Origin: a virus
Lineage: Duplodnaviria > Heunggongvirae > Uroviricota > Caudoviricetes
Length of the DNA: 15,261 bases
Direction: 5' to 3' (one strand)
IMG/VR virus record: IMGVR_UViG_2545824644_000012
Span: 1-15,261 of that record
The notes under the pieces were generated by a model. It was given only the letters and a program-made list of their open reading frames with translations. It did not search any database and was not told the DNA's origin. Shown here one piece after another: positions 1-11,749 of the stretch. The position numbers were made by a program, and so were the translations under genes. The first letter of the stretch is position 1. Each line of letters opens with the position of its first letter.

Positions 1-1131
1 TCAAATGACCAGTTTTTTCCATTCCTTACCACGTGCGTCGTTGTAAATATCGGTCATTTTTTGATTCGAATGTCCCAGCAAAATTTTGGTATCAATTCCC
101 TGTTCTCTGAACAATCGTTCTGATAAAGATCTCTGCTCATGGAAAGAGGGTGGGGTGCCATTAGCACGCCAGTTGTAATCCACAGAATCCCGGGCTTTTT
201 TAAATGCAACGGTTAACGTTGCTGGCTTAACCATCCCGCCGCGCTTAGCTGTCCCTTTAGCATGATGGTGGTGCAATAGCCACGGACTAAGAACGCAATC
301 GCGACAGGATGACACCACATCATCCAGGGTGAGATTTAATTTATCGCAACGCAGAGCCAGAGGGATGGCAATCCGGGTTCCTGTTTTTTGCTGTTCGACA
401 TGAAGATAACCATCCCTGATATCCGAAAATTTCATTTTGCAAATATCTGAAAGGCGCTGGCCTGTCATCAGTGCCAGCAGCATACCACGCTGTAAAAAGT
501 AACCATTCTTTTCCGCTGCATTATAAATCATCATCCACTCATCAAAGGTCAGTCGTTGCCGTGATATCCGTACCTGGGGTTTTTTTGCCGATTCTGCAGG
601 GTTAAAGCCTGGCGGGACATCGCCCGTTTGCTGGGCCTCCCGGAAAACATCGATCAGTACTTTCCTGAAAATTTGTCCCATTCTGTTATGTCCTTTTGCC
701 TTGTAATCTTCCAGCACCGATACCACATCTTTTACGGTTATGGCATCTAATGGTCTGGTACCAAAACGTTCATCAAATACTCTGAGAGGGGATGCTTTCT
801 GTTTCAGTGTGTTGAGTTTGATCTCTCCGTTTTCATATCTTTCCTGTTGAATTTTTCGGTAACTATTCAGAAAAGCAGAAACGGTTGATGGACTACCGGT
901 ATCACTAATAATTTTCTCCTGCAGACTGAGCATTTGTTCCATTTGTTGCCTGGCAAGACGGCTGTTCGCTTCTGCTGCAATAGCTTCTGCCTGTTTCTGG
1001 TCAATACTGCCGAGTCCGTGATTTTTTCCTGTTATGGGATGCCTGTAACGCCAGTAAACTTTGTTATTTCTTTTGTCAAAATACGGAGATAATCCCGGAA
1101 CTTCAGTTTTATATTTTCGTGGGCGCGCCAT
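1..1131 (-). CDS. int: Phage tyrosine integrase (lambda Int family), complete
   Basis: 376-aa ORF; C-terminal catalytic-domain motifs resemble lambda Int (HEQRSLSERL, LLGHSNQKMTDIY with the presumed catalytic Tyr); stop codon at window positions 1-3; 23-nt overlap with the upstream excisionase, as in lambda xis-int. Confidence 0.9.
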   Translation of the reverse strand: MARPRKYKTEVPGLSPYFDKRNNKVYWRYRHPITGKNHGLGSIDQKQAEAIAAEANSRLARQQMEQMLSLQEKIISDTGSPSTVSAFLNSYRKIQQERYENGEIKLNTLKQKASPLRVFDERFGTRPLDAITVKDVVSVLEDYKAKGHNRMGQIFRKVLIDVFREAQQTGDVPPGFNPAESAKKPQVRISRQRLTFDEWMMIYNAAEKNGYFLQRGMLLALMTGQRLSDICKMKFSDIRDGYLHVEQQKTGTRIAIPLALRCDKLNLTLDDVVSSCRDCVLSPWLLHHHHAKGTAKRGGMVKPATLTVAFKKARDSVDYNWRANGTPPSFHEQRSLSERLFREQGIDTKILLGHSNQKMTDIYNDARGKEWKKLVI

Positions 1132-1357
1132 CTTCCAGTATCCTCTTCAAAGCAGGGTGATCTGTGGCGATCACTTCCGGCTTGTTTACCATTCCGACAA
1201 AGCGAGCTCGAGGATCCACTCGCCAGTGTCTTCCAACTTTTTTGGGGAGAGGAAATATCATTCCGGCTTTAGCGTATTTACTTAACGTGCCCGGAGTCGG
1301 GACCGGGTCACTGAATTCCTCTTTTGCCCACTCAGTGAGAAGAATAAGTCTTGCCAT
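1109..1357 (-). CDS. xis: Excisionase (lambda Xis-like)
   Basis: 82-aa ORF immediately upstream of and overlapping int; sequence aligns by eye with lambda Xis (LTEWAKE, IFPLPKKVGRHWRV). No strong Shine-Dalgarno seen. Confidence 0.75.
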   Translation of the reverse strand: MARLILLTEWAKEEFSDPVPTPGTLSKYAKAGMIFPLPKKVGRHWRVDPRARFVGMVNKPEVIATDHPALKRILEDGAPTKI

Positions 1358-1421
1358 GAGAGTTGTTCGCTAATCATGGTCGCCGCCACTATAGCTTGCG
1401 GGCGACGACCGGGGTTGAACA

Positions 1422-3893
1422 TTAAAAATCAGCCTGACTCGGGAGCAGTTTTTGCCAGATGGCTGAAACGTATTTTGCCTGGTAACGAGCATCGTGCAGC
1501 GCGTTATGGCGTTCACCTTCGAATGGAATAGTCGTTCTTGCGTCGAAATCCATCACCAGTCCCAGAGCAACCATCGTTCTTACATCGCGATCATTGGTGA
1601 AACGCCACGGGCAGGGGAGCCCCTGTCGTTCATATGAACGGCGTAAAATCACGTTGTCGAAAGTTGCACCGTTACCCCAGACCTGAACAAAAAATTCACC
1701 GGAGTTTTCGTCGATAAATTCCCGTAGTTGCAGCAGTGCATCATCCAACGGGATTTCATCGGTCAGAATGGCGGATTGTGCTTCGCGTGACTGTTTCAGC
1801 CACCACTTAATGGTGTCCCGATCGATGACCCCGCCTGCGGTTTCCAGATCGATAGTTTTGCTGAATTCTGGCCCCATCTCTCCGGTTGCCGGATCAAAAA
1901 ACTTACCGGCTATAGCGTTTATTGGCGCATCAGGATTTTTTCCCATTGTTTCAAGGTCAATCATCAGATGGTGCCACAACCTGCTGGTGGATGTGATTTC
2001 ATGATGACCGTTCACTTTAATTAAGGGATTTGCTGTCTCGCCAGTTTTATTATCGCTGGCGTGATACTGATCGCTGCCAGTGTTCTCCTTGTGCAGATGT
2101 TCAGTGCCTTCCATTTCCTCCGGAGCATTTTCCTGAGCTTCAGCCTGATTCTCTTCATCGAATGTTTCCTGGTAGGTTGCGTTCCCCATCACCGCACCAC
2201 AGTCAGGACAGTTGCCGCCACCGGTCTGACCGCATGCGGTGCAAACTTTTTCCAGTTCCTGTTGCACTGCTGGTTCTGGTTGTTGTTCTTCTGGCCCGTT
2301 TTGTTGCGTATCCGGGCTGTTTTGTTCCGCTTCTGGCTCATTTTGTTTCACGTTGGGCTGATTCAGGTCCTCAGCGTCGCGACTCTGGATCCCTTTCACC
2401 CATTTCGGATCATCCGGGTCGCTAATCCCTTCAACAAATTCACCACGTGATGCAGCAAGCAATTTATCGGCGTCAGGCTGGCTGATATTGGCTGCCTGCA
2501 TAATTTTGTTTACTTCGTCAGCGGTAACTTTTACCGGCTCTGGTTGTTCGGAATCTTCAGTGCTATCCACATTTTGCGGTAAGCCCGTGTATGTGCCATT
2601 TTTTCGGGCAAAATATTCTTCTTTTGAGATTTCGGTACCGCCGGCAGCCAGCGCCCTGTCCAGACCAGAAAGTTTGTTTGCCCTGCCGTATTTTTCCCCG
2701 CCCTTATCGGTAAAGACGAAATAAAATGGTCCTTCACGCTCTACAGATGGTTCAGCTTCCACCAGGATTTCATTTTTTTGAGTATCGGATTCTGCCGTCT
2801 CCACTGGAGCAGTTTGTGCTGCTGACTGCTGGAGAGCATTAGCAGAGCTCTGGTCTGTTTCTTCATGTTCAAACACGCCCTTTGTCGTCAGGTATTCGCT
2901 GATATATTTGTTCAGTGCAACGGGATCTTTGTGAATATCGATCGGACGTTCGCGAACAAGGCCAAAAATAGTCTGACGGTCATAGGCAAGTGCTTCGGGC
3001 TGTTTGCGCATTGATGCTGAGATACGCTTCCAGTCTTCGCGATCCTTGTCGATAACCTCATTTGTCGCCCAGCGATGGATGGTACCGTCAATGTTTCCTG
3101 CATCCACATCACCGGGCCAGAGGGCGCAGGCCAGTTCATTGTCGAGTGTTTTCCATGTCTGTTTGTATTCGCGGCGAATGGCAACAGTGACAGCCCCGGT
3201 TTTTTCAGCAGCGTTTTCAGTGTTCTGTTGGTTGACTCTGGCGCGGGCGAGATCAACAACAGACGTGTATTTTCCGGTTTCCTTGCGTTCACCTTCGCGA
3301 CGTTTTTTCCAGATGCGCATCTCTGCCTGAATTTCAGGCCATTTAGCGCCAGGCTCACATTTATTCTTAACCCACCCGATGGCATGCAGTTTAAGTTCAG
3401 GATACATGGCGTTAACTTCTGGCATTTTCATCAACGCTTCAACGATATGTCCGCCGAATGTTGCCATGTCTTCCTGTAGTAATTCCTGTGCGCTAATCAC
3501 CATATCAACGGTGATGTTTTCGCATGTGTCGAATTTAACCAGGACTGCGTTCTGTACTTCAGGGGACAGCTTGTCAAAATTGACGTTCATCGGATCGGAT
3601 TCGGGTTCGACCGGGACAAAGGACGCAGACTCCTCATCCCAGCGGTTTTCCTGCATATATTCGGTATCCCAGGAATCGAGGGCAGGGCGGGGTATGCCGG
3701 GTTTATCCTCGCAGACAATAAATTTATAAGCGCAGTCCTGAGCTGCCGGGAATTGCTCCAGAAATTGCCAGTGAAATTTTGCGCGTGCGCGACGCTCATC
3801 ACCGGCTTCAATGGCAGTGGCCACCGCAACAGCGCTATCTTCTTCTATGGCCTGCTCGTCAGGAATAGCAGCGCAAATAAAGATTTTATTCAT
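1422..3893 (-). CDS. Large RecE-like exonuclease (exodeoxyribonuclease VIII-like) with C-terminal DEDDh 3'-5' exonuclease domain
   Basis: 823-aa ORF. C-terminal ~180 aa carry DnaQ/RNase T-type motifs ([34 protein letters not shown]). Central acidic Q/E/P-rich low-complexity stretch with a CxxC-x8-CxxC zinc-ribbon ([16 protein letters not shown]). Sits where lambdoid phages carry exo/recE, upstream of xis-int. GAGG about 11 nt before the ATG. Confidence 0.7.
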
Positions 3894-3988: not shown

Positions 3989-4177
3989 TTATCCAGCCGG
4001 TGTTTCGTTATTCAGGTACAGCGATACTTTTTTTACCGGGAGGCATTCACCGGGGATTTTTTGTTCGTCCCTTACCTGAATGCAGGATGACTTACTGTCA
4101 TAAATTCCGGTAATCACATTCTGCGGCTCACCCGTTATAAGAAAAACGGTCATCACCAGTGCAAATGCTGAAGTCAT
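3989..4177 (-). CDS. ydfD: YdfD-like small lysis protein (Qin ydfD homologue)
   Basis: 62-aa ORF with hydrophobic N-terminus (MTSAFALVMTVFLITGEP) and EQKIPG.C.PV.KV pattern recalled from Qin YdfD; GGAG 7 nt upstream; ATG overlaps the dicB stop (ATGA). Confidence 0.6.
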   Translation of the reverse strand: MTSAFALVMTVFLITGEPQNVITGIYDSKSSCIQVRDEQKIPGECLPVKKVSLYLNNETPAG

Positions 4178-4362
4178 TGACGTTCTCCGAAAATACCAAG
4201 TTTAATAAGGGCAATTCGGGAAAGAATGGAATTATCATTGAGCAGATAAGGCTCATATTTCCGCATATTAATGGCATCCTCAGTAAACGCTTTATTACTG
4301 AGCAGAACACCAATATCAAAACAACCTTCAGACGTATTAACGTTTGGTAATAACGTTTCCAT
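4174..4362 (-). CDS. dicB: Cell-division inhibitor DicB homologue
   Basis: 62-aa ORF; N-terminus METLLPNVNTSEGCFDIGV..FTEDAIN.RK matches recalled K-12 DicB (MKTLLPNVNTSEGCFEIGV...FTEDAINKRK); GAGGA 7 nt upstream of the ATG; same length as DicB. Confidence 0.75.
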   Translation of the reverse strand: METLLPNVNTSEGCFDIGVLLSNKAFTEDAINMRKYEPYLLNDNSILSRIALIKLGIFGERQ

Positions 4363-4379
4363 TATCGCGTCCTCAACAA

Positions 4380-4535
4380 TGAATTTTGTGATGCAGTGCC
4401 TGGTGCCTCCAGGTGACGTTAACCAGTTAACAATTAACGCCGGATTGTTAGTTGATGTCTGTTACGCAAGTAAAAGACCGCTTGTTTTAACTGTTCCGCG
4501 TGCGCATAGCCGCATTCACCGCATCACAAAATTCA
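4380..4535. repeat. Near-perfect 19-bp inverted repeat pair (tGAATTTTGTGATGC(a/g)GTG) separated by about 118 bp
   Basis: Plus strand 4380-4398 tgaattttgtgatgcagtg; reverse complement of 4517-4535 is tgaattttgtgatgcggtg (18/19 identical). Lies between the DicF-like element and the dicB ribosome-binding site. Confidence 0.8.
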
Positions 4536-4539
4536 CTTT

Positions 4540-4579
4540 AAAAAGGGCGGATATCCATTTCCGCCGAATCACCAGAAAA
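4540..4579 (-). ncRNA. dicF: DicF-like small RNA (shortened variant) with intrinsic-terminator 3' end
   Basis: Minus strand reads UUUCUGGUGAUUCGGCGGAAAUGGAUAUCCGCCCUUUUU. The 5' UUUCUGGUGA and the GGCGG...CCGCCC stem plus U-run resemble recalled DicF (UUUCUGGUGACGUUUGGCGG...GCCGCCC). Position immediately upstream of dicB matches Qin gene order. Boundaries approximate. Confidence 0.45.
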
Positions 4580-4941
4580 GTGATAACAGAGGTTGTTGTG
4601 GCTGGGGTGTCACTTAAGCGTATGGTCAACCTGACAACCCGGTGTCCTCAACGGGGGAAGGAATAACCCCGCCATACTTACCGCCGCGCCATTTCGCGGA
4701 TTACCACAACCGGAAGCGCACGATCGAATTAAATTTAACGACGACCTATACAGAGAGACGAACTTCGCCGTGCGCTTTCGTGTTGTGTGCCTGCTTTAAC
4801 CACGTCAGGCGAGGTGGACTCGTTATTCCCCAACAACAAGGATCTTGTTAATCTGGATATCCACAACAAGAATAAGAGTATTCAGAGTGATCGCTGAATT
4901 AACGGCAGCAATGGCGGCTATTCCTTAATTACCAGGCATCA

Positions 4942-5094
4942 TTAGTCAGAGTTTCTTGCTAACCAGCGATGCGCGCCAGCTTCGGTTTTAAACGTTTTAC
5001 TTTTGGTATACGTCATCGCGGTAAACGTGCCGTCCTGGTTGGGGAAGACGCCGCACACCAGAGATTCATTGTTGCCAAGATTGAGCATATCCAT
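4942..5094 (-). CDS. DUF1391-like small protein (YdfA/YdaF family)
   Basis: 50-aa ORF below the track length cutoff: MDMLNLGNNESLVCGVFPNQDGTFTAMTYTKSKTFKTEAGAHRWLARNSD; GAGG 4 nt before the ATG; first gene downstream of the leftward promoter, as ydfA is in the Qin dicB operon. Family assignment from memory. Confidence 0.55.
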   Translation of the reverse strand: MDMLNLGNNESLVCGVFPNQDGTFTAMTYTKSKTFKTEAGAHRWLARNSD

Positions 5095-5272: not shown

Positions 5273-5310
5273 AATCTACAAGTAAAAACTGTTTGATGTC
5301 AACAATAAAT
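5273..5310 (-). promoter_or_regulatory. Leftward sigma70-type promoter (-35 TTGACA, 18-bp spacer, -10 TAGATT) overlapped by a repressor operator
   Basis: Minus strand: TTGACA is the reverse complement of 5297-5302 and TAGATT of 5273-5278. Plus strand 5283-5310 contains aaaaaCTGTT-N7-AACAAtaaat, the same half-site pattern as the palindrome in the repressor/cro intergenic region. Confidence 0.5.
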
Positions 5311-5366: not shown

Positions 5367-5654
5367 TTAAAGATTAGCGGGGAATTGTCGACGGGCGTGA
5401 ACCACGTTTACAATTTCAATACCTGAAGTTGTCACCCGGTACAAAATTATGTAATTGGGGTGAGCCACAATCTCGCGCAAACCTGGCACTCTGTCGCTTG
5501 GCGGATATAAATACGGATGTTCGGATAACGGCAGGACGCAAGCTCTTAAGCGTTGCCATAAGCGTTCTGCCGCATCTATGTCGAAACGGGCAATATAACT
5601 AGTTATATCATCCAGATCGGTATCTGCGCTTTCAAGCCATAACACGGGTAACAT
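5367..5654 (-). CDS. parE2: ParE/RelE-family type II toxin (ParE2-like)
   Basis: 95-aa ORF starting directly after the antitoxin stop (TAA-ATG); RelE/ParE-like size and sequence; partner of a PaaA2-like antitoxin. Confidence 0.8.
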   Translation of the reverse strand: MLPVLWLESADTDLDDITSYIARFDIDAAERLWQRLRACVLPLSEHPYLYPPSDRVPGLREIVAHPNYIILYRVTTSGIEIVNVVHARRQFPANL

Positions 5655-5846
5655 TTACTGCTCTCTCCGTTCCTTGCGAATTTTGGCAAAGCGTTCTGCC
5701 ATTCTGCGCTCAACTTCATCATGTGGAATAGCAGGACGTGGATCAGCAAGGCTTGCGGCTACTTTTGCGCGTAACCATTCGTTATAACTGTTTTCTTGCT
5801 CAACGGTTTCAAATTCAGAAACCATTGGTGAAAGGGCTGTATTCAT
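5655..5846 (-). CDS. paaA2: PaaA2-like antitoxin (63 aa)
   Basis: Using the internal Met gives MNTALSPMVSEFETVEQENSYNEWLRAKVAASLADPRPAIPHDEVERRMAERFAKIRKERREQ, near-identical to the recalled E. coli O157 PaaA2. AGGAGG 6 nt upstream of this ATG; the longer track ORF (to 5909) would overlap the repressor gene. Confidence 0.85.
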   Translation of the reverse strand: MNTALSPMVSEFETVEQENSYNEWLRAKVAASLADPRPAIPHDEVERRMAERFAKIRKERREQ

Positions 5847-5875: not shown

Positions 5876-6277
5876 TTACGCTCGGTGCCCCTTTTGGGCT
5901 GCGATCCACCGAGCAACAGTTTCTTCCATTGACTTTTTCTTATTTTTTATTTCCTGAAGCATTTTTTCTTGGTCTTCATCGGGAAATGCACTAAAAGCTT
6001 GGAGCAATTCACGTTGGCGAGGGCCAATTTTCATCGTGTCAGGAGTAAAAATTTGCTCTCCCTCTTCTGGAGGTAATAAAAACCAATGTAGTGGATGCCC
6101 TGTAACCTCGACCAACTTATCTAAGCTGGAGGCTTTAGGTGTGGCTTTTCCACTGACCCATTGCTGAACAGTTTGCTGTGTCACACCGACTCTACGAGCA
6201 AGTTCAGCTTGGCTCCATCCTGTTTCTTTGAGGAGCCTGCTAATTCTGTACATAGATACTTCTAGGGCCTTCATCAT
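5876..6277 (-). CDS. paaR2: HTH (XRE-family) repressor, DicA/PaaR2-like; probable prophage repressor
   Basis: 133-aa ORF with helix-turn-helix (SQAELARRVGVTQQTVQQW); divergent from a Cro-like gene across an operator-containing intergenic region; immediately upstream of the PaaA2/ParE2 pair on the same strand. No Shine-Dalgarno upstream, so possibly leaderless like lambda cI. Confidence 0.7.
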   Translation of the reverse strand: MMKALEVSMYRISRLLKETGWSQAELARRVGVTQQTVQQWVSGKATPKASSLDKLVEVTGHPLHWFLLPPEEGEQIFTPDTMKIGPRQRELLQAFSAFPDEDQEKMLQEIKNKKKSMEETVARWIAAQKGHRA

Positions 6278-6385: not shown

Positions 6386-6646
6386 ATGCTCAATAGCACC
6401 CGTGAAAAAATTAAGCAGAAATACACACAGGCTGAAATAGGACGCTATATGGGAGTAACCCAACAAACTGTTTGGCAATGGTTTAGCTTGGGTATTCCTC
6501 CCAAACAGGTAATCCCTTTATGCCAACTAATGCAGTGGGGGGTTACTCCTCACGAACTCCGACCTGATATTTATCCTAACCCAACAGACGGCTTGCCTGC
6601 TGAGTTTCAGACTAGCACACAGCCAGCGACGGGAGTTGATTCATGA
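6386..6646 (+). CDS. Cro-like HTH regulator (YdaS family)
   Basis: 86-aa ORF; GAGGAGGG Shine-Dalgarno; motif GVTQQTVWQW..GIPP...ELRPD typical of YdaS/Cro-like proteins; divergent from the repressor. Confidence 0.7.
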   Translation: MLNSTREKIKQKYTQAEIGRYMGVTQQTVWQWFSLGIPPKQVIPLCQLMQWGVTPHELRPDIYPNPTDGLPAEFQTSTQPATGVDS

Positions 6647-7068
6647 AAATCAAGCATGAGCACATCCGCATGGCGATGAATGCCTGGGCATATCCTGACG
6701 GTGAGAAAGTTCCCGCAGCTGAAATAGCCCGGACTTATTTCGAACTGGGGATGACGTTCCCGGAACTGTACGACGACACTCATCCTGAGGCCCTGGCTCG
6801 TAATACCCAGAAAATTTTCCGTTGGCTGGATAAAGACACCCATGATGCTGTTGAAAAAATTCAGGCTCTGTTACCGGCGATCGAAAAGGCGATGCCGCCT
6901 TTGCTGGTGGCCCGTATGCGCAGTCACAGTTCTGAGTACTACCGGGAGATTGTCGAACGGCGGGATCGGCTGGTGAAGGATGTCGACGATTTTGTTGCGT
7001 CAGCGGTCGTTTTGTATGACCAGATAAATCGCGGCGGCCCGGCAGGGAATGCTGTGGTGATGCACTAA
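6643..7068 (+). CDS. YdaT-family protein (CII-like regulator / putative toxin)
   Basis: 141-aa ORF beginning MKIKHEHI, as recalled for Rac YdaT; ATG overlaps the cro-like stop (ATGA), matching the ydaS-ydaT arrangement. Confidence 0.6.
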   Translation: MKIKHEHIRMAMNAWAYPDGEKVPAAEIARTYFELGMTFPELYDDTHPEALARNTQKIFRWLDKDTHDAVEKIQALLPAIEKAMPPLLVARMRSHSSEYYREIVERRDRLVKDVDDFVASAVVLYDQINRGGPAGNAVVMH

Positions 7069-11418: not shown

Positions 11419-11593
11419 TGCAGCGGGTGCTTGAGGCTATCTGCCTCGGGCATGAACACCAACGGCAGATAGAGAAAAGCCCCAGTTAACATTACGCGTC
11501 CTGCAAGACGCTTAACATTAATCTGAGGCTCAATCCATGCTGAACACATGTAGGTTAGCCTCTTACGTGCCGAAAGGCAAGGAGAAGCAGGCT

Positions 11594-11749
11594 ATGAAGC
11601 AGCAAAAGGCGATGTTAATCGCCCTGATCGTCATCTGTTTAACCGTCATAGTGACGGCACTGGTAACGAGGAAAGACCTCTGCGAGGTGCGAATCCGAAC
11701 CGGTCAGACGGAGGTCGCTGTCTTCGTAGACTACGAATCTGAGAAGTAA
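11594..11749 (+). CDS. hok: Hok/Gef-family type I toxin (HokD/RelF-like)
   Basis: 51-aa ORF MKQQKAMLIALIVICLTVIVTALVTRKDLCEVRIRTGQTEVAVFVDYESEK with the Hok signature; AAGGAG upstream. The in-frame upstream ATG at 11537 (track ORF) would add a 19-aa extension. Confidence 0.85.
   Translation: MKQQKAMLIALIVICLTVIVTALVTRKDLCEVRIRTGQTEVAVFVDYESEK

What the first reader, a model, noticed from the sequence alone, without database searches (positions are those of the whole stretch)
4540..4579. DicF-like sRNA upstream of dicB, apparently a shortened variant
The minus strand encodes UUUCUGGUGA followed by a GGCGG/CCGCC hairpin and a U-run, echoing both ends of K-12 DicF but with a much shorter internal region. 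DicF regulates ftsZ and other mRNAs; a variant may have a different target set.
Basis: partly seen in the sequence, partly recalled or inferred. Interest (0 to 1): 0.55.

Follow-up and report, generated by a model that had tools for sequence, protein, structure and literature searches.

The report
Short dicF allele upstream of dicB
This is the prophage's copy of the small-RNA gene dicF in a naturally shortened form. It keeps the transcription terminator and the first ten bases but lacks the part that lets normal DicF switch off the cell-division gene ftsZ. It is probably mainly a terminator in front of dicB and is missed by standard annotation.

Summary
On the minus strand, 4578-4540 reads UUUCUGGUGAUUC, then GGCGGA(AAUGGAUA)UCCGCC, then C and UUUUU, 178 nt upstream of dicB (4362-4174).

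It is the positional homologue of K-12 dicF. The flanks are 88% and 87% identical to the Qin locus. The first 10 nt, the base of the stem and the U-run are kept. K-12 nt 11-15 (CGUUU) became UUC, and the 27-nt hairpin top became 10 unrelated nt.

The Rfam DicF model finds nothing here, even at E<=10. K-12 scores 76.7 bits.

The allele is real and recurrent:
- It is in 442 of 5426 complete E. coli genomes, in the E. albertii type strain, and identically in O157:H7 Sakai prophage Sp14.
- dicB lies about 180 nt downstream wherever downstream DNA is held.

The missing or altered segments are those published as pairing with ftsZ, pykA, manX and xylR. Predicted pairing of the short allele with these targets is at background.

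Best reading: an intrinsic terminator and processing hairpin in the dicB leader. It may release a 34-39-nt RNA that is not a DicF-equivalent division inhibitor. A retargeted mini-sRNA is not excluded. Expression is untested.

This is a new variant of a known kind, of modest interest.

The parts
4540..4578 (-). Short dicF allele. The predicted RNA runs from the homologue of the K-12 DicF 5' end (4578) to the end of the U-run (4540). It is 39 nt, or 34 nt without the U's.
   Evidence: Alignment to K-12 dicF (b1574, annotated ncRNA). The sequence is read.
4566..4578 (-). Single-stranded 5' tail UUUCUGGUGAUUC. The first 10 nt are identical to K-12 DicF. K-12 nt 11-15 (CGUUU) are replaced by UUC.
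   Evidence: The xylR pairing core GGUGACGUUU is reduced to GGUGAU.
4546..4565 (-). Terminator hairpin GGCGGA-AAUGGAUA-UCCGCC, with 6 bp and an 8-nt loop. Its free energy is about -10.4 to -10.7 kcal/mol. It is followed by C and UUUUU (4545-4540).
   Evidence: The stem base GGCGG/CCGCC is shared by all slot alleles, and a compensatory GGUGG/CCACC pair occurs in L199, L204 and L236.
4568..4584 (-). Precursor hairpin AUCACU-UUUCU-GGUGAU. It pairs the 5' tail with upstream sequence and places the homologue of the DicF 5' end (the RNase E site in K-12) in its loop.
   Evidence: MFE folds of the 431-nt window region and of K-12 both show a hairpin here. The role in processing is inferred.
4581..4756 (-). 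Conserved, structured, non-coding leader upstream of the dicF slot. It is 88% identical to the K-12 ydfC-dicF spacer.
   Evidence: The whole 431-nt region folds with z = -4.2. ORFs here have no Pfam match.
4517..4537 (-). 5' arm of a long-range stem of about 20 bp that starts 3 nt after the U-run. It is the likely RNase III substrate; in K-12, RNase III cleavage gives the 72-nt DicF form.
   Evidence: MFE and centroid folds in window and K-12. RNase III processing is taken from the literature (PMC5069750, PMC9438474). The link to this stem is inferred.
4378..4398 (-). 3' arm of the long-range stem. It ends 4 nt before the dicB Shine-Dalgarno sequence (GAGGA, 4374-4370).
4174..4362 (-). dicB, the cell-division inhibitor gene (62 aa).
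   Evidence: Pfam PF05358, 121 bits. RefSeq annotation of the identical record.
3989..4177 (-). DUF1482 (ydfD-like) gene, overlapping the end of dicB.
   Evidence: Pfam PF07358.
4942..5094 (-). DUF1391 (ydfA-like) gene, the first gene of the dicB-type operon.
   Evidence: Pfam PF07151.
5273..5302 (-). Promoter-like site TTGACA-18-TAGATT upstream of the DUF1391 gene. It is a candidate operon promoter.
   Evidence: Consensus scan only, 10 of 12 positions. Not evidence of function.

Best explanation
The element is the dicF locus of a lambdoid prophage integrated beside ompW, in a short allelic form.

Shown:
- It occupies exactly the dicF slot of the ydfA-...-dicF-dicB-ydfD operon.
- It keeps the first 10 nt of DicF, the G+C-rich base of the terminator stem and the U-run.
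- It keeps the upstream hairpin that holds the DicF 5'-end site, and the downstream ~20-bp stem.
- It lacks the 27-nt hairpin top and nt 11-15 of K-12 DicF.

Inferred mechanism: transcription from the operon promoter upstream of the DUF1391 gene reaches this hairpin, and a fraction terminates at the U-run. The rest reads through into dicB. RNase E cleavage in the upstream hairpin loop would release a 34-39-nt RNA: a 13-nt tail, a 6-bp hairpin and a U tail. RNase III cleavage in the downstream stem would give a form about 19 nt longer.

The deleted or altered segments are the ones DicF uses to pair with ftsZ, pykA, manX and xylR. I therefore predict that this allele does not repress ftsZ translation and is not a DicF-equivalent division inhibitor. 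In this prophage, division inhibition would rest on DicB. The retained role of the element would be in cis: termination or attenuation, and processing of the dicB leader.
For: Homology:
- Flanks are 88% and 87% identical to the K-12 dicF locus, with the slot in register.
- dicB, DUF1391 and DUF1482 are confirmed.

Terminator:
- Found by the consensus scan and the fold.
- The stem base is shared by 11 slot alleles, with a compensatory GGUGG/CCACC change in three loci.

Processing context:
- The upstream hairpin and the downstream long stem are both present in window and K-12 folds.

Loss of targeting modules:
- The literature places ftsZ, pykA and manX pairing in the DicF 3' region and xylR pairing at the 5' end (PMC5069750; PMC5861419).
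- My accessibility-corrected duplex search recovers the xylR, pykA and manX sites for K-12 DicF at -12 to -14 kcal/mol, better than all 24 shuffled targets in each case.
- The short allele gives only -4.6 to -7.5 kcal/mol, within the shuffled range.

Reality of the allele:
- It is full length in 442 of 5426 complete E. coli genomes, in the E. albertii type strain and in Sakai Sp14.
- dicB lies about 180 nt downstream in every short-allele locus that extends far enough: 8 distinct loci besides the window's own record, at 84-100% protein identity.
- The slot differs by at most 1 of the 32 bases compared across three different flank haplotypes.
Against: - No expression, processing or Hfq-binding data exist for this allele, so the cis-only emphasis is an inference.
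- The invariant 5' tail and hairpin across divergent flanks could reflect selection on a trans-acting RNA.
- The hairpin is the weakest of all slot alleles (-10.4 against -14 to -22 kcal/mol), so termination may be less efficient than assumed.
- My duplex method did not separate the K-12 DicF-ftsZ pairing from shuffles. The claim of ftsZ loss therefore rests on published mapping to the 3' region plus the absence of that region here, not on my calculation.
- The short allele shows a 12-nt complementarity to pchA codons 32-35 (+94..+105; 1 of 24 shuffles did as well). This is of uncertain meaning.
Confidence: 0.6

Rival explanations
1. A functional, retargeted mini-DicF. The 34-39-nt RNA is stable, binds Hfq through its U tail, and uses the 13-nt tail UUUCUGGUGAUUC to regulate mRNAs or sponge sRNAs different from those of K-12 DicF.
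For: - The tail and hairpin are nearly invariant across three flank haplotypes, while neighbouring DicB drops to 84% identity.
- The processing context is retained.
- The architecture of seed, single hairpin and U tail matches what is known to suffice for Hfq-dependent sRNAs (established knowledge from the Aiba laboratory's minimal-sRNA work; not tested here).
- Prophages are known to encode short sRNAs of 51-60 nt with variable 5' seeds on a conserved terminator (PMC4104026).
- There is a weak pchA complementarity at +94..+105.
Against: - No transcript evidence exists.
- The U-run has only 5 U's and the hairpin is weak.
- No significant pairing was found with any of the five published DicF targets.
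- A genome-wide target search could not be run.
- The near-invariance may simply reflect recent horizontal spread.
Confidence: 0.27
2. A decayed dicF pseudogene. An internal deletion destroyed the sRNA, and what remains is a neutral remnant with no selected function in cis or in trans.
For: - It is the only one of 11 slot alleles without an inner stem, and it is the least stable.
- Its 3' arm GGAUAUCCGCC looks like the leftover of a longer stem, the complement of the 5' arm of allele L200.
- Some copies carry a stem mismatch (GGCAG in L092) or a wobble (GGUGG in L032).
Against: - An intact G+C stem plus U-run is kept in almost all copies.
- The allele is widespread, and found in two Escherichia species.
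- It is always upstream of an intact dicB.
Confidence: 0.1
3. A chance resemblance to DicF: an unrelated terminator that happens to follow a UUUCUGGUGA string.
For: The Rfam DicF model gives no hit.
Against: - The flanks are 88% and 87% identical to the K-12 dicF locus, with the slot in register.
- The gene order is the same.
Confidence: 0.01

Closest known systems
DicF sRNA of the E. coli K-12 Qin prophage (Rfam RF00039; b1574)
   Same: - Same slot between the ydfA-type genes and dicB.
- Identical first 10 nt.
- Same stem base GGCGG/CCGCC(C) and UUUUU tail.
- Same upstream hairpin and downstream long stem.
- Flanks 87-88% identical.
   Different: - The hairpin is 21 nt instead of 38 nt.
- The 27-nt top (UAUCAGUUUUACUCCGUGACUGCUCUG), which carries the ftsZ, pykA and manX pairing region, is replaced by AAAUGGAUAU.
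- Nt 11-15, CGUUU (the xylR core), is replaced by UUC.
- There is no covariance-model hit.
Other alleles of the same slot: the 'v63' DicF variant (about 630 genomes, also in O157:H7) and the Rac-type hairpin upstream of kilR (1837 genomes)
   Same: - Same terminator base, U-run and downstream sequence.
- All sit in front of a division-inhibitor gene, dicB or kilR.
   Different: - Those alleles keep a long hairpin with an inner CAUCAG/CUGAUG-type stem (-14 to -22 kcal/mol).
- The Rac type has an unrelated 5' tail.
- Only the short allele has a plain loop.
Prophage 'anti-sRNAs' AgvB and AsxR of EHEC (Tree et al. 2014, PMC4104026)
   Same: - Very short prophage-encoded RNAs built as a variable 5' seed on a conserved terminator.
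- Present as families of related but non-identical copies in lambdoid prophages.
   Different: - They are encoded in the late region at the moron site, with their own promoters.
- There is no sequence similarity.
- Their function as sRNA sponges is demonstrated; nothing is demonstrated for the short dicF allele.
Rfam STnc100 (RF02076)
   Same: The dicF-dicB spacer (4330-4547, minus strand) matches the model over its full length. It shares the UCACCUGGAGGCACCAGGCAC hairpin and an enclosing long stem.
   Different: - It scores 33.4 bits against a gathering score of 47. The K-12 spacer scores 34.4.
- A true STnc100 copy (138 bits) lies in the late region of Sakai Sp4.
- The match concerns the neighbouring spacer, not the dicF slot itself.

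Membership tests
DicF (Rfam RF00039) | Covariance-model score at or above the gathering score (48 bits) | tested here: not met
   No DicF match at E<=10 on 601 nt or on 81 nt. The positive control, K-12, scores 76.7 bits, and Sakai Sp4 scores 76.9 bits.
DicF (Rfam RF00039) | Location in the untranslated stretch between the ydfA(BC)-type genes and dicB of a lambdoid prophage, with homologous flanks | tested here: met
   Gene order DUF1391 - slot - dicB - DUF1482. Flanks are 88% and 87% identical to K-12.
DicF (Rfam RF00039) | Single-stranded 5' region UUUCUGGUGACGUUU, used for xylR pairing | tested here: inconclusive
   The first 10 nt are identical, and nt 11-15 are replaced by UUC. The predicted xylR duplex falls from -13.9 to -7.5 kcal/mol, within the shuffled range.
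DicF (Rfam RF00039) | 3' region complementary to the ftsZ ribosome-binding site (also used for pykA and manX) | tested here: not met
   The 27-nt hairpin top is absent. pykA and manX pairing is at background for the short allele. The mapping of these sites to the 3' region comes from PMC5069750 and PMC5861419.
DicF (Rfam RF00039) | Rho-independent terminator hairpin followed by a U-run that forms the 3' end | tested here: met
   6-bp stem with 5 G-C pairs, and the tail CUUUUUAAAG.
DicF (Rfam RF00039) | Generation by RNase E (5' end) and RNase III (alternative 3' end); Hfq binding | not testable with these tools
   Only the sequence context is conserved: the upstream hairpin and the downstream ~20-bp stem.
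Intrinsic (Rho-independent) terminator | G+C-rich hairpin immediately followed by a T-run on the transcribed strand, inside a transcription unit | tested here: met
   Searches (scan; fold), and co-orientation with DUF1391 and dicB. Termination efficiency was not measured.
STnc100 (Rfam RF02076), for the adjacent spacer | Covariance-model score at or above the gathering score (47 bits) | tested here: not met
   33.4 bits, E = 1.5e-5. This is a sub-threshold relative only.

The most novel reading that the evidence does not exclude
The dicF slot is a modular, recombining cassette in which two independent targeting modules are shuffled among lambdoid prophages: the 5' tail and the hairpin top. On this reading the short allele is a selected 'tail-only' DicF, a 34-39-nt Hfq-dependent RNA among the shortest natural ones. 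It would have shed the toxic ftsZ, pykA and manX module and would have its own regulon. It would be present but uncounted in EHEC O157:H7 (Sakai Sp14) beside the copies that Rfam-based annotation detects.
Probability: 0.2. Interest if true: 0.6.

Novelty: new variant of a known kind. Interest (0 to 1): 0.38.

Why it matters
DicF is a classic prophage sRNA that links prophages to host cell division, sugar metabolism and, in EHEC, virulence (pchA). Rfam-based lists of dicF copies miss this allele: four DicF entries are listed for EDL933 (PMC5331693), and reviews cite four copies in Sakai and 86-24 (PMC7873438). Yet the allele sits in 8% of complete E. coli genomes and in the reference EHEC strain Sakai.

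If it is only a terminator, it shows that the sRNA function of the slot is dispensable while the cis element is not. That bears on why prophages keep this locus. If it is expressed, it is a natural separation-of-function allele for dissecting which DicF effects need which module. In either case it changes how dicF dosage in pathogenic strains should be counted.

Tried and rejected
- **Rfam at three settings**. No DicF hit. I kept this as a membership failure, not as evidence against homology.
- **Plain RNAduplex without accessibility**. It gave long, loop-rich duplexes with uninformative z-scores, so I replaced it with an accessibility-corrected window search.
- **ftsZ in that search.** The method did not distinguish the K-12 DicF-ftsZ pairing from shuffles (9 of 24 shuffles did as well). 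No computational claim is made for ftsZ.
- **pchA**.
  - In my fold the anti-SD (the coding-region stretch that pairs with the Shine-Dalgarno sequence) is +24..+30.
  - K-12 DicF nt 1-5 and 9-15 can pair there weakly (-7.9 kcal/mol), and the short allele loses the second block.
  - The short allele has a separate 12-nt match at +94..+105. I treat this as a lead only.
- **Plus-strand and other ORFs over the region** (4271-4666, 4642-4851, 4735-4869). None has a Pfam family. They are treated as spurious.
- **Window search for complements of the 5' tail**. There were 7 matches against 5.5 expected, and only the element itself is exact.
- **GTDB-wide pattern scan**.
  - Most of the 66 hits are chance matches without the hairpin.
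  - Matches in Veillonella and Collinsella MAGs carry a K-12-type DicF sequence and look like contamination.
  - L085 from the viral scan is also a chance match.
- **Literature.**
  - Searches for natural dicF variants found no description of a short allele.
  - Melson & Kendall 2019, Murashko & Lin-Chao 2017 and Faubladier & Bouché 1994 are not held, so prior mention there cannot be excluded.
  - The supplements of Tree et al. 2014 contain no entry at the Sakai coordinates.

Full report
**What is in the sequence**

Read on the minus strand, 4579-4540 is (U)UUUCUGGUGAUUC GGCGGA AAUGGAUA UCCGCC C UUUUU. The terminator scan independently reports 4565..4546(-) as a 6-bp stem with 5 G-C pairs, an 8-nt loop and the tail CTTTTTAAAG. 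RNA folding gives the same hairpin at -10.7 kcal/mol.

The element lies inside a co-oriented gene string, confirmed by Pfam and by the RefSeq annotation of an identical record:
- DUF1391/ydfA-like at 5094-4942;
- dicB at 4362-4174 (PF05358, 121 bits);
- DUF1482/ydfD-like at 4177-3989;
- then exonuclease, excisionase and integrase.

The window is 100% identical to a prophage beside ompW in E. coli OkiPb01678, from bovine faeces.

**Is it dicF?**

By position and descent, yes. Aligned with the K-12 Qin locus, where dicF is an annotated ncRNA:
- the 177 nt upstream are 88% identical;
- the 200 nt downstream are 87% identical;
- the slot is in register.

Within the slot, the first 10 nt (UUUCUGGUGA), the stem base GGCGG/CCGCCC and the U-run are kept. 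K-12 nt 11-15 (CGUUU) are replaced by UUC. The 27-nt hairpin top (UAUCAGUUUUACUCCGUGACUGCUCUG) is replaced by 10 unrelated nt (AAAUGGAUAU). This is not a simple deletion of K-12 sequence.

The short allele's 3' arm, GGAUAUCCGCC, is the exact complement of the 5' arm of another slot allele (L200, GGCGGAUAUC...). This hints at origin by internal deletion from a longer-stem relative (inference).

By the Rfam test the answer is no. RF00039 gives no hit at gathering threshold, nor at E<=10 on 601 nt or 81 nt. The K-12 control scores 76.7 bits and Sakai Sp4 scores 76.9 bits. A 52-position model cannot absorb the loss of 18-19 positions including the inner stem. I record this as a failed membership criterion, not as evidence against homology.

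**The allele is real and recurrent**

An 81-nt query centred on the slot is matched over at least 80% of its length in 442 of 5426 complete E. coli genomes. K-12-type loci match only the shared 31-36 nt on one side. For comparison:
- the K-12 type is in 3973 genomes;
- a third allele with a different top ('v63') is in about 630 genomes at 95% identity or more;
- the Rac-type hairpin in front of kilR is in 1837 genomes.

No record of the phage collection carries the short allele at full length.

A scan of one genome per species found the seed-plus-anchor pattern, with the hairpin, only in Escherichia and Shigella. The exceptions are K-12-type DicF sequences in Veillonella and Collinsella MAGs, which look like contamination. 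The E. albertii type strain carries the short allele with one loop change.

In O157:H7 Sakai the identical allele lies in prophage Sp14, between ECs_2767 and dicB (ECs_2768). Rfam finds DicF in Sp4 but nothing in Sp14. Rfam-based lists therefore cannot include this locus. This applies to the four DicF entries listed for EDL933 in PMC5331693. Reviews give four copies for Sakai and 86-24 (PMC7873438), but I could not read the primary paper, so I cannot say how those were counted.

Across the distinct short-allele loci, the slot differs by at most one of the 32 bases compared. It occurs in three different flank haplotypes. dicB lies about 180 nt downstream in every locus that extends that far: 8 distinct loci besides the window's own record, at 84-100% protein identity.

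**The slot as a family**

Anchoring only on the conserved downstream sequence, viral contigs show at least 11 hairpin alleles and at least three unrelated 5' tails. These include chimeras in which the K-12 top, the ftsZ-pairing part, sits behind a Rac-like tail. Those chimeras have a compensatory GGUGG/CCACC stem.

All alleles except the short one have a 36-43-nt hairpin with an inner stem, at -14 to -22 kcal/mol. The short allele has 21 nt at -10.4 kcal/mol. What is constant across the family is the terminator base, the U-run and the downstream sequence.

**Processing context**

The 431-nt region from 4760 to 4330 folds far better than shuffles (z = -4.2). K-12 behaves likewise (z = -3.6). 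Two features recur in both:
- A hairpin pairs the DicF 5' tail with upstream AUCAC and places the homologue of the DicF 5' end in its loop (4584-4568).
- A long-range stem of about 20 bp starts 3 nt after the U-run (4537-4517 with 4398-4378) and ends 4 nt before the dicB Shine-Dalgarno sequence.

In K-12, the DicF 5' end is made by RNase E. A 72-nt form, 19 nt past the 53-nt end, is made by RNase III (PMC5069750; PMC9438474). The 19 extra nt fall inside the 5' arm of this stem, so it is the obvious RNase III substrate (inference). This spacer is also a sub-threshold match to Rfam STnc100 (33.4 bits here, 34.4 in K-12).

**What the short allele can and cannot pair with**

Published genetics place ftsZ, pykA and manX pairing in the 3' region of DicF and xylR pairing at the 5' end (PMC5069750; PMC5861419).

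I ran an accessibility-corrected duplex search and compared each result with 24 shuffled versions of the target.

| Target | K-12 DicF nt | Target position | K-12 (kcal/mol) | Shuffles as good as K-12 | Short allele: shuffles as good |
|---|---|---|---|---|---|
| xylR | 6-15 | +10..+19 | -13.9 | 0 of 24 | 4 of 24 |
| pykA | 26-42 | -18..-1 | -12.6 | 0 of 24 | 8 of 24 |
| manX | 36-53 | +35..+52 | -12.1 | 0 of 24 | 19 of 24 |

The short allele reaches only -4.6 to -7.5 kcal/mol on these targets. The xylR core GGUGACGUUU/AAACGUCACC shrinks to GGUGAU/GUCACC.

The method did not separate the K-12-ftsZ pairing from shuffles. The ftsZ statement therefore rests on the published mapping plus the physical absence of that segment.

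For pchA the picture is weak:
- K-12 DicF can pair weakly with the anti-SD (the coding-region stretch that pairs with the Shine-Dalgarno sequence) through nt 1-5 and 9-15, and the short allele loses the second block.
- A separate 12-nt match of the short tail to +94..+105 is noted as a lead only.

**Interpretation**

The best-supported reading (confidence about 0.6) is that the cis element has been kept: a terminator and processing hairpin in the dicB leader. The trans-acting modules that make DicF a division and metabolism regulator have been lost. A 34-39-nt RNA may still be released, but it should not repress ftsZ.

The rivals are:
- a retargeted mini-sRNA acting through the 13-nt tail (about 0.27);
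- a neutral remnant (about 0.1);
- chance resemblance (excluded by the alignment).

No tool here can show transcripts, Hfq binding or termination efficiency. The decisive data are allele-specific reads in existing EHEC datasets, Northern blots, and the Vanderpool-type reporter fusions.

**Novelty and score**

I found no description of natural short dicF alleles in the searchable literature. Three key papers are not held, so earlier mention cannot be ruled out.

It is a new variant of a known kind. It is useful for annotation and as a natural separation-of-function allele, but not a new principle. Interest: 0.38.

Noticed in passing
window 4330-4547 (-): The dicF-dicB spacer is a sub-threshold, full-length match to Rfam STnc100 (33.4 bits, gathering score 47). 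The K-12 spacer gives 34.4 bits. It contains a long-range stem of about 20 bp (4537-4517 with 4398-4378) that ends just before the dicB ribosome-binding site. This stem is probably the RNase III site behind the 72-nt DicF form. A true STnc100 copy (138 bits) lies in the late region of Sakai Sp4 instead.
   Followed up: partly
window 11425-11749 (+): There is a hok/sok-type toxin-antitoxin module. Rfam sok scores 113.5 bits at 11425-11599, overlapping a Hok/Gef family gene annotated at 11594-11749 in the identical RefSeq record.
   Followed up: no
window 5367-5846 (-): A relB/relE toxin-antitoxin pair sits between the dicA-like repressor gene (5876-6277) and the DUF1391 gene, inside the immunity and early-left region. 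K-12 Qin has nothing there. Sakai Sp4 and strain 05-3629 have the same arrangement.
   Followed up: no
window 6386-6659 (+): The ydaS/cro-like gene divergent from the repressor is annotated as a frameshifted pseudogene in the identical RefSeq record. The prophage may therefore be defective in its lytic switch.
   Followed up: no
loci L199, L204, L236, L228, L235 (IMG/VR contigs), dicF slot: These are chimeric slot alleles. The K-12-type hairpin top, the ftsZ-pairing segment ACUCCGUGACUGCUCUG, sits behind a Rac-like 5' tail with no UUUCUGGUGA. Three of them have a compensatory GGUGG/CCACC stem base. The 5' tail and the hairpin top therefore behave as separately exchangeable modules.
   Followed up: partly
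L240 8680-8717 (NC_002695.2 about 2,707,679-2,707,716), O157:H7 Sakai prophage Sp14: The identical short allele lies between ECs_2767 and dicB (ECs_2768) in the reference EHEC strain. Rfam detects DicF in Sp4 but not here, so Rfam-based lists of dicF copies in O157:H7 omit this locus.
   Followed up: yes
L160 (E. albertii), L011/L112, H111 (O157:H7 PV15-279): A third allele ('v63') has the K-12 5' tail but a different hairpin top (GGCGGCAUCUGUUUGCCCAUGAACUGAUGUCCGCC). It is in about 630 E. coli genomes. In the prediction it keeps the xylR site but loses the pykA and manX sites. It may be the 56-nt 'DicF_3' listed for EDL933.
   Followed up: partly
window 4566-4573 (-): The tail segment GGUGAU(U) is complementary to AUCACC in the 3' end of 16S rRNA, so it is Shine-Dalgarno-like. 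K-12 DicF has GGUGAC. The significance is unknown.
   Followed up: no
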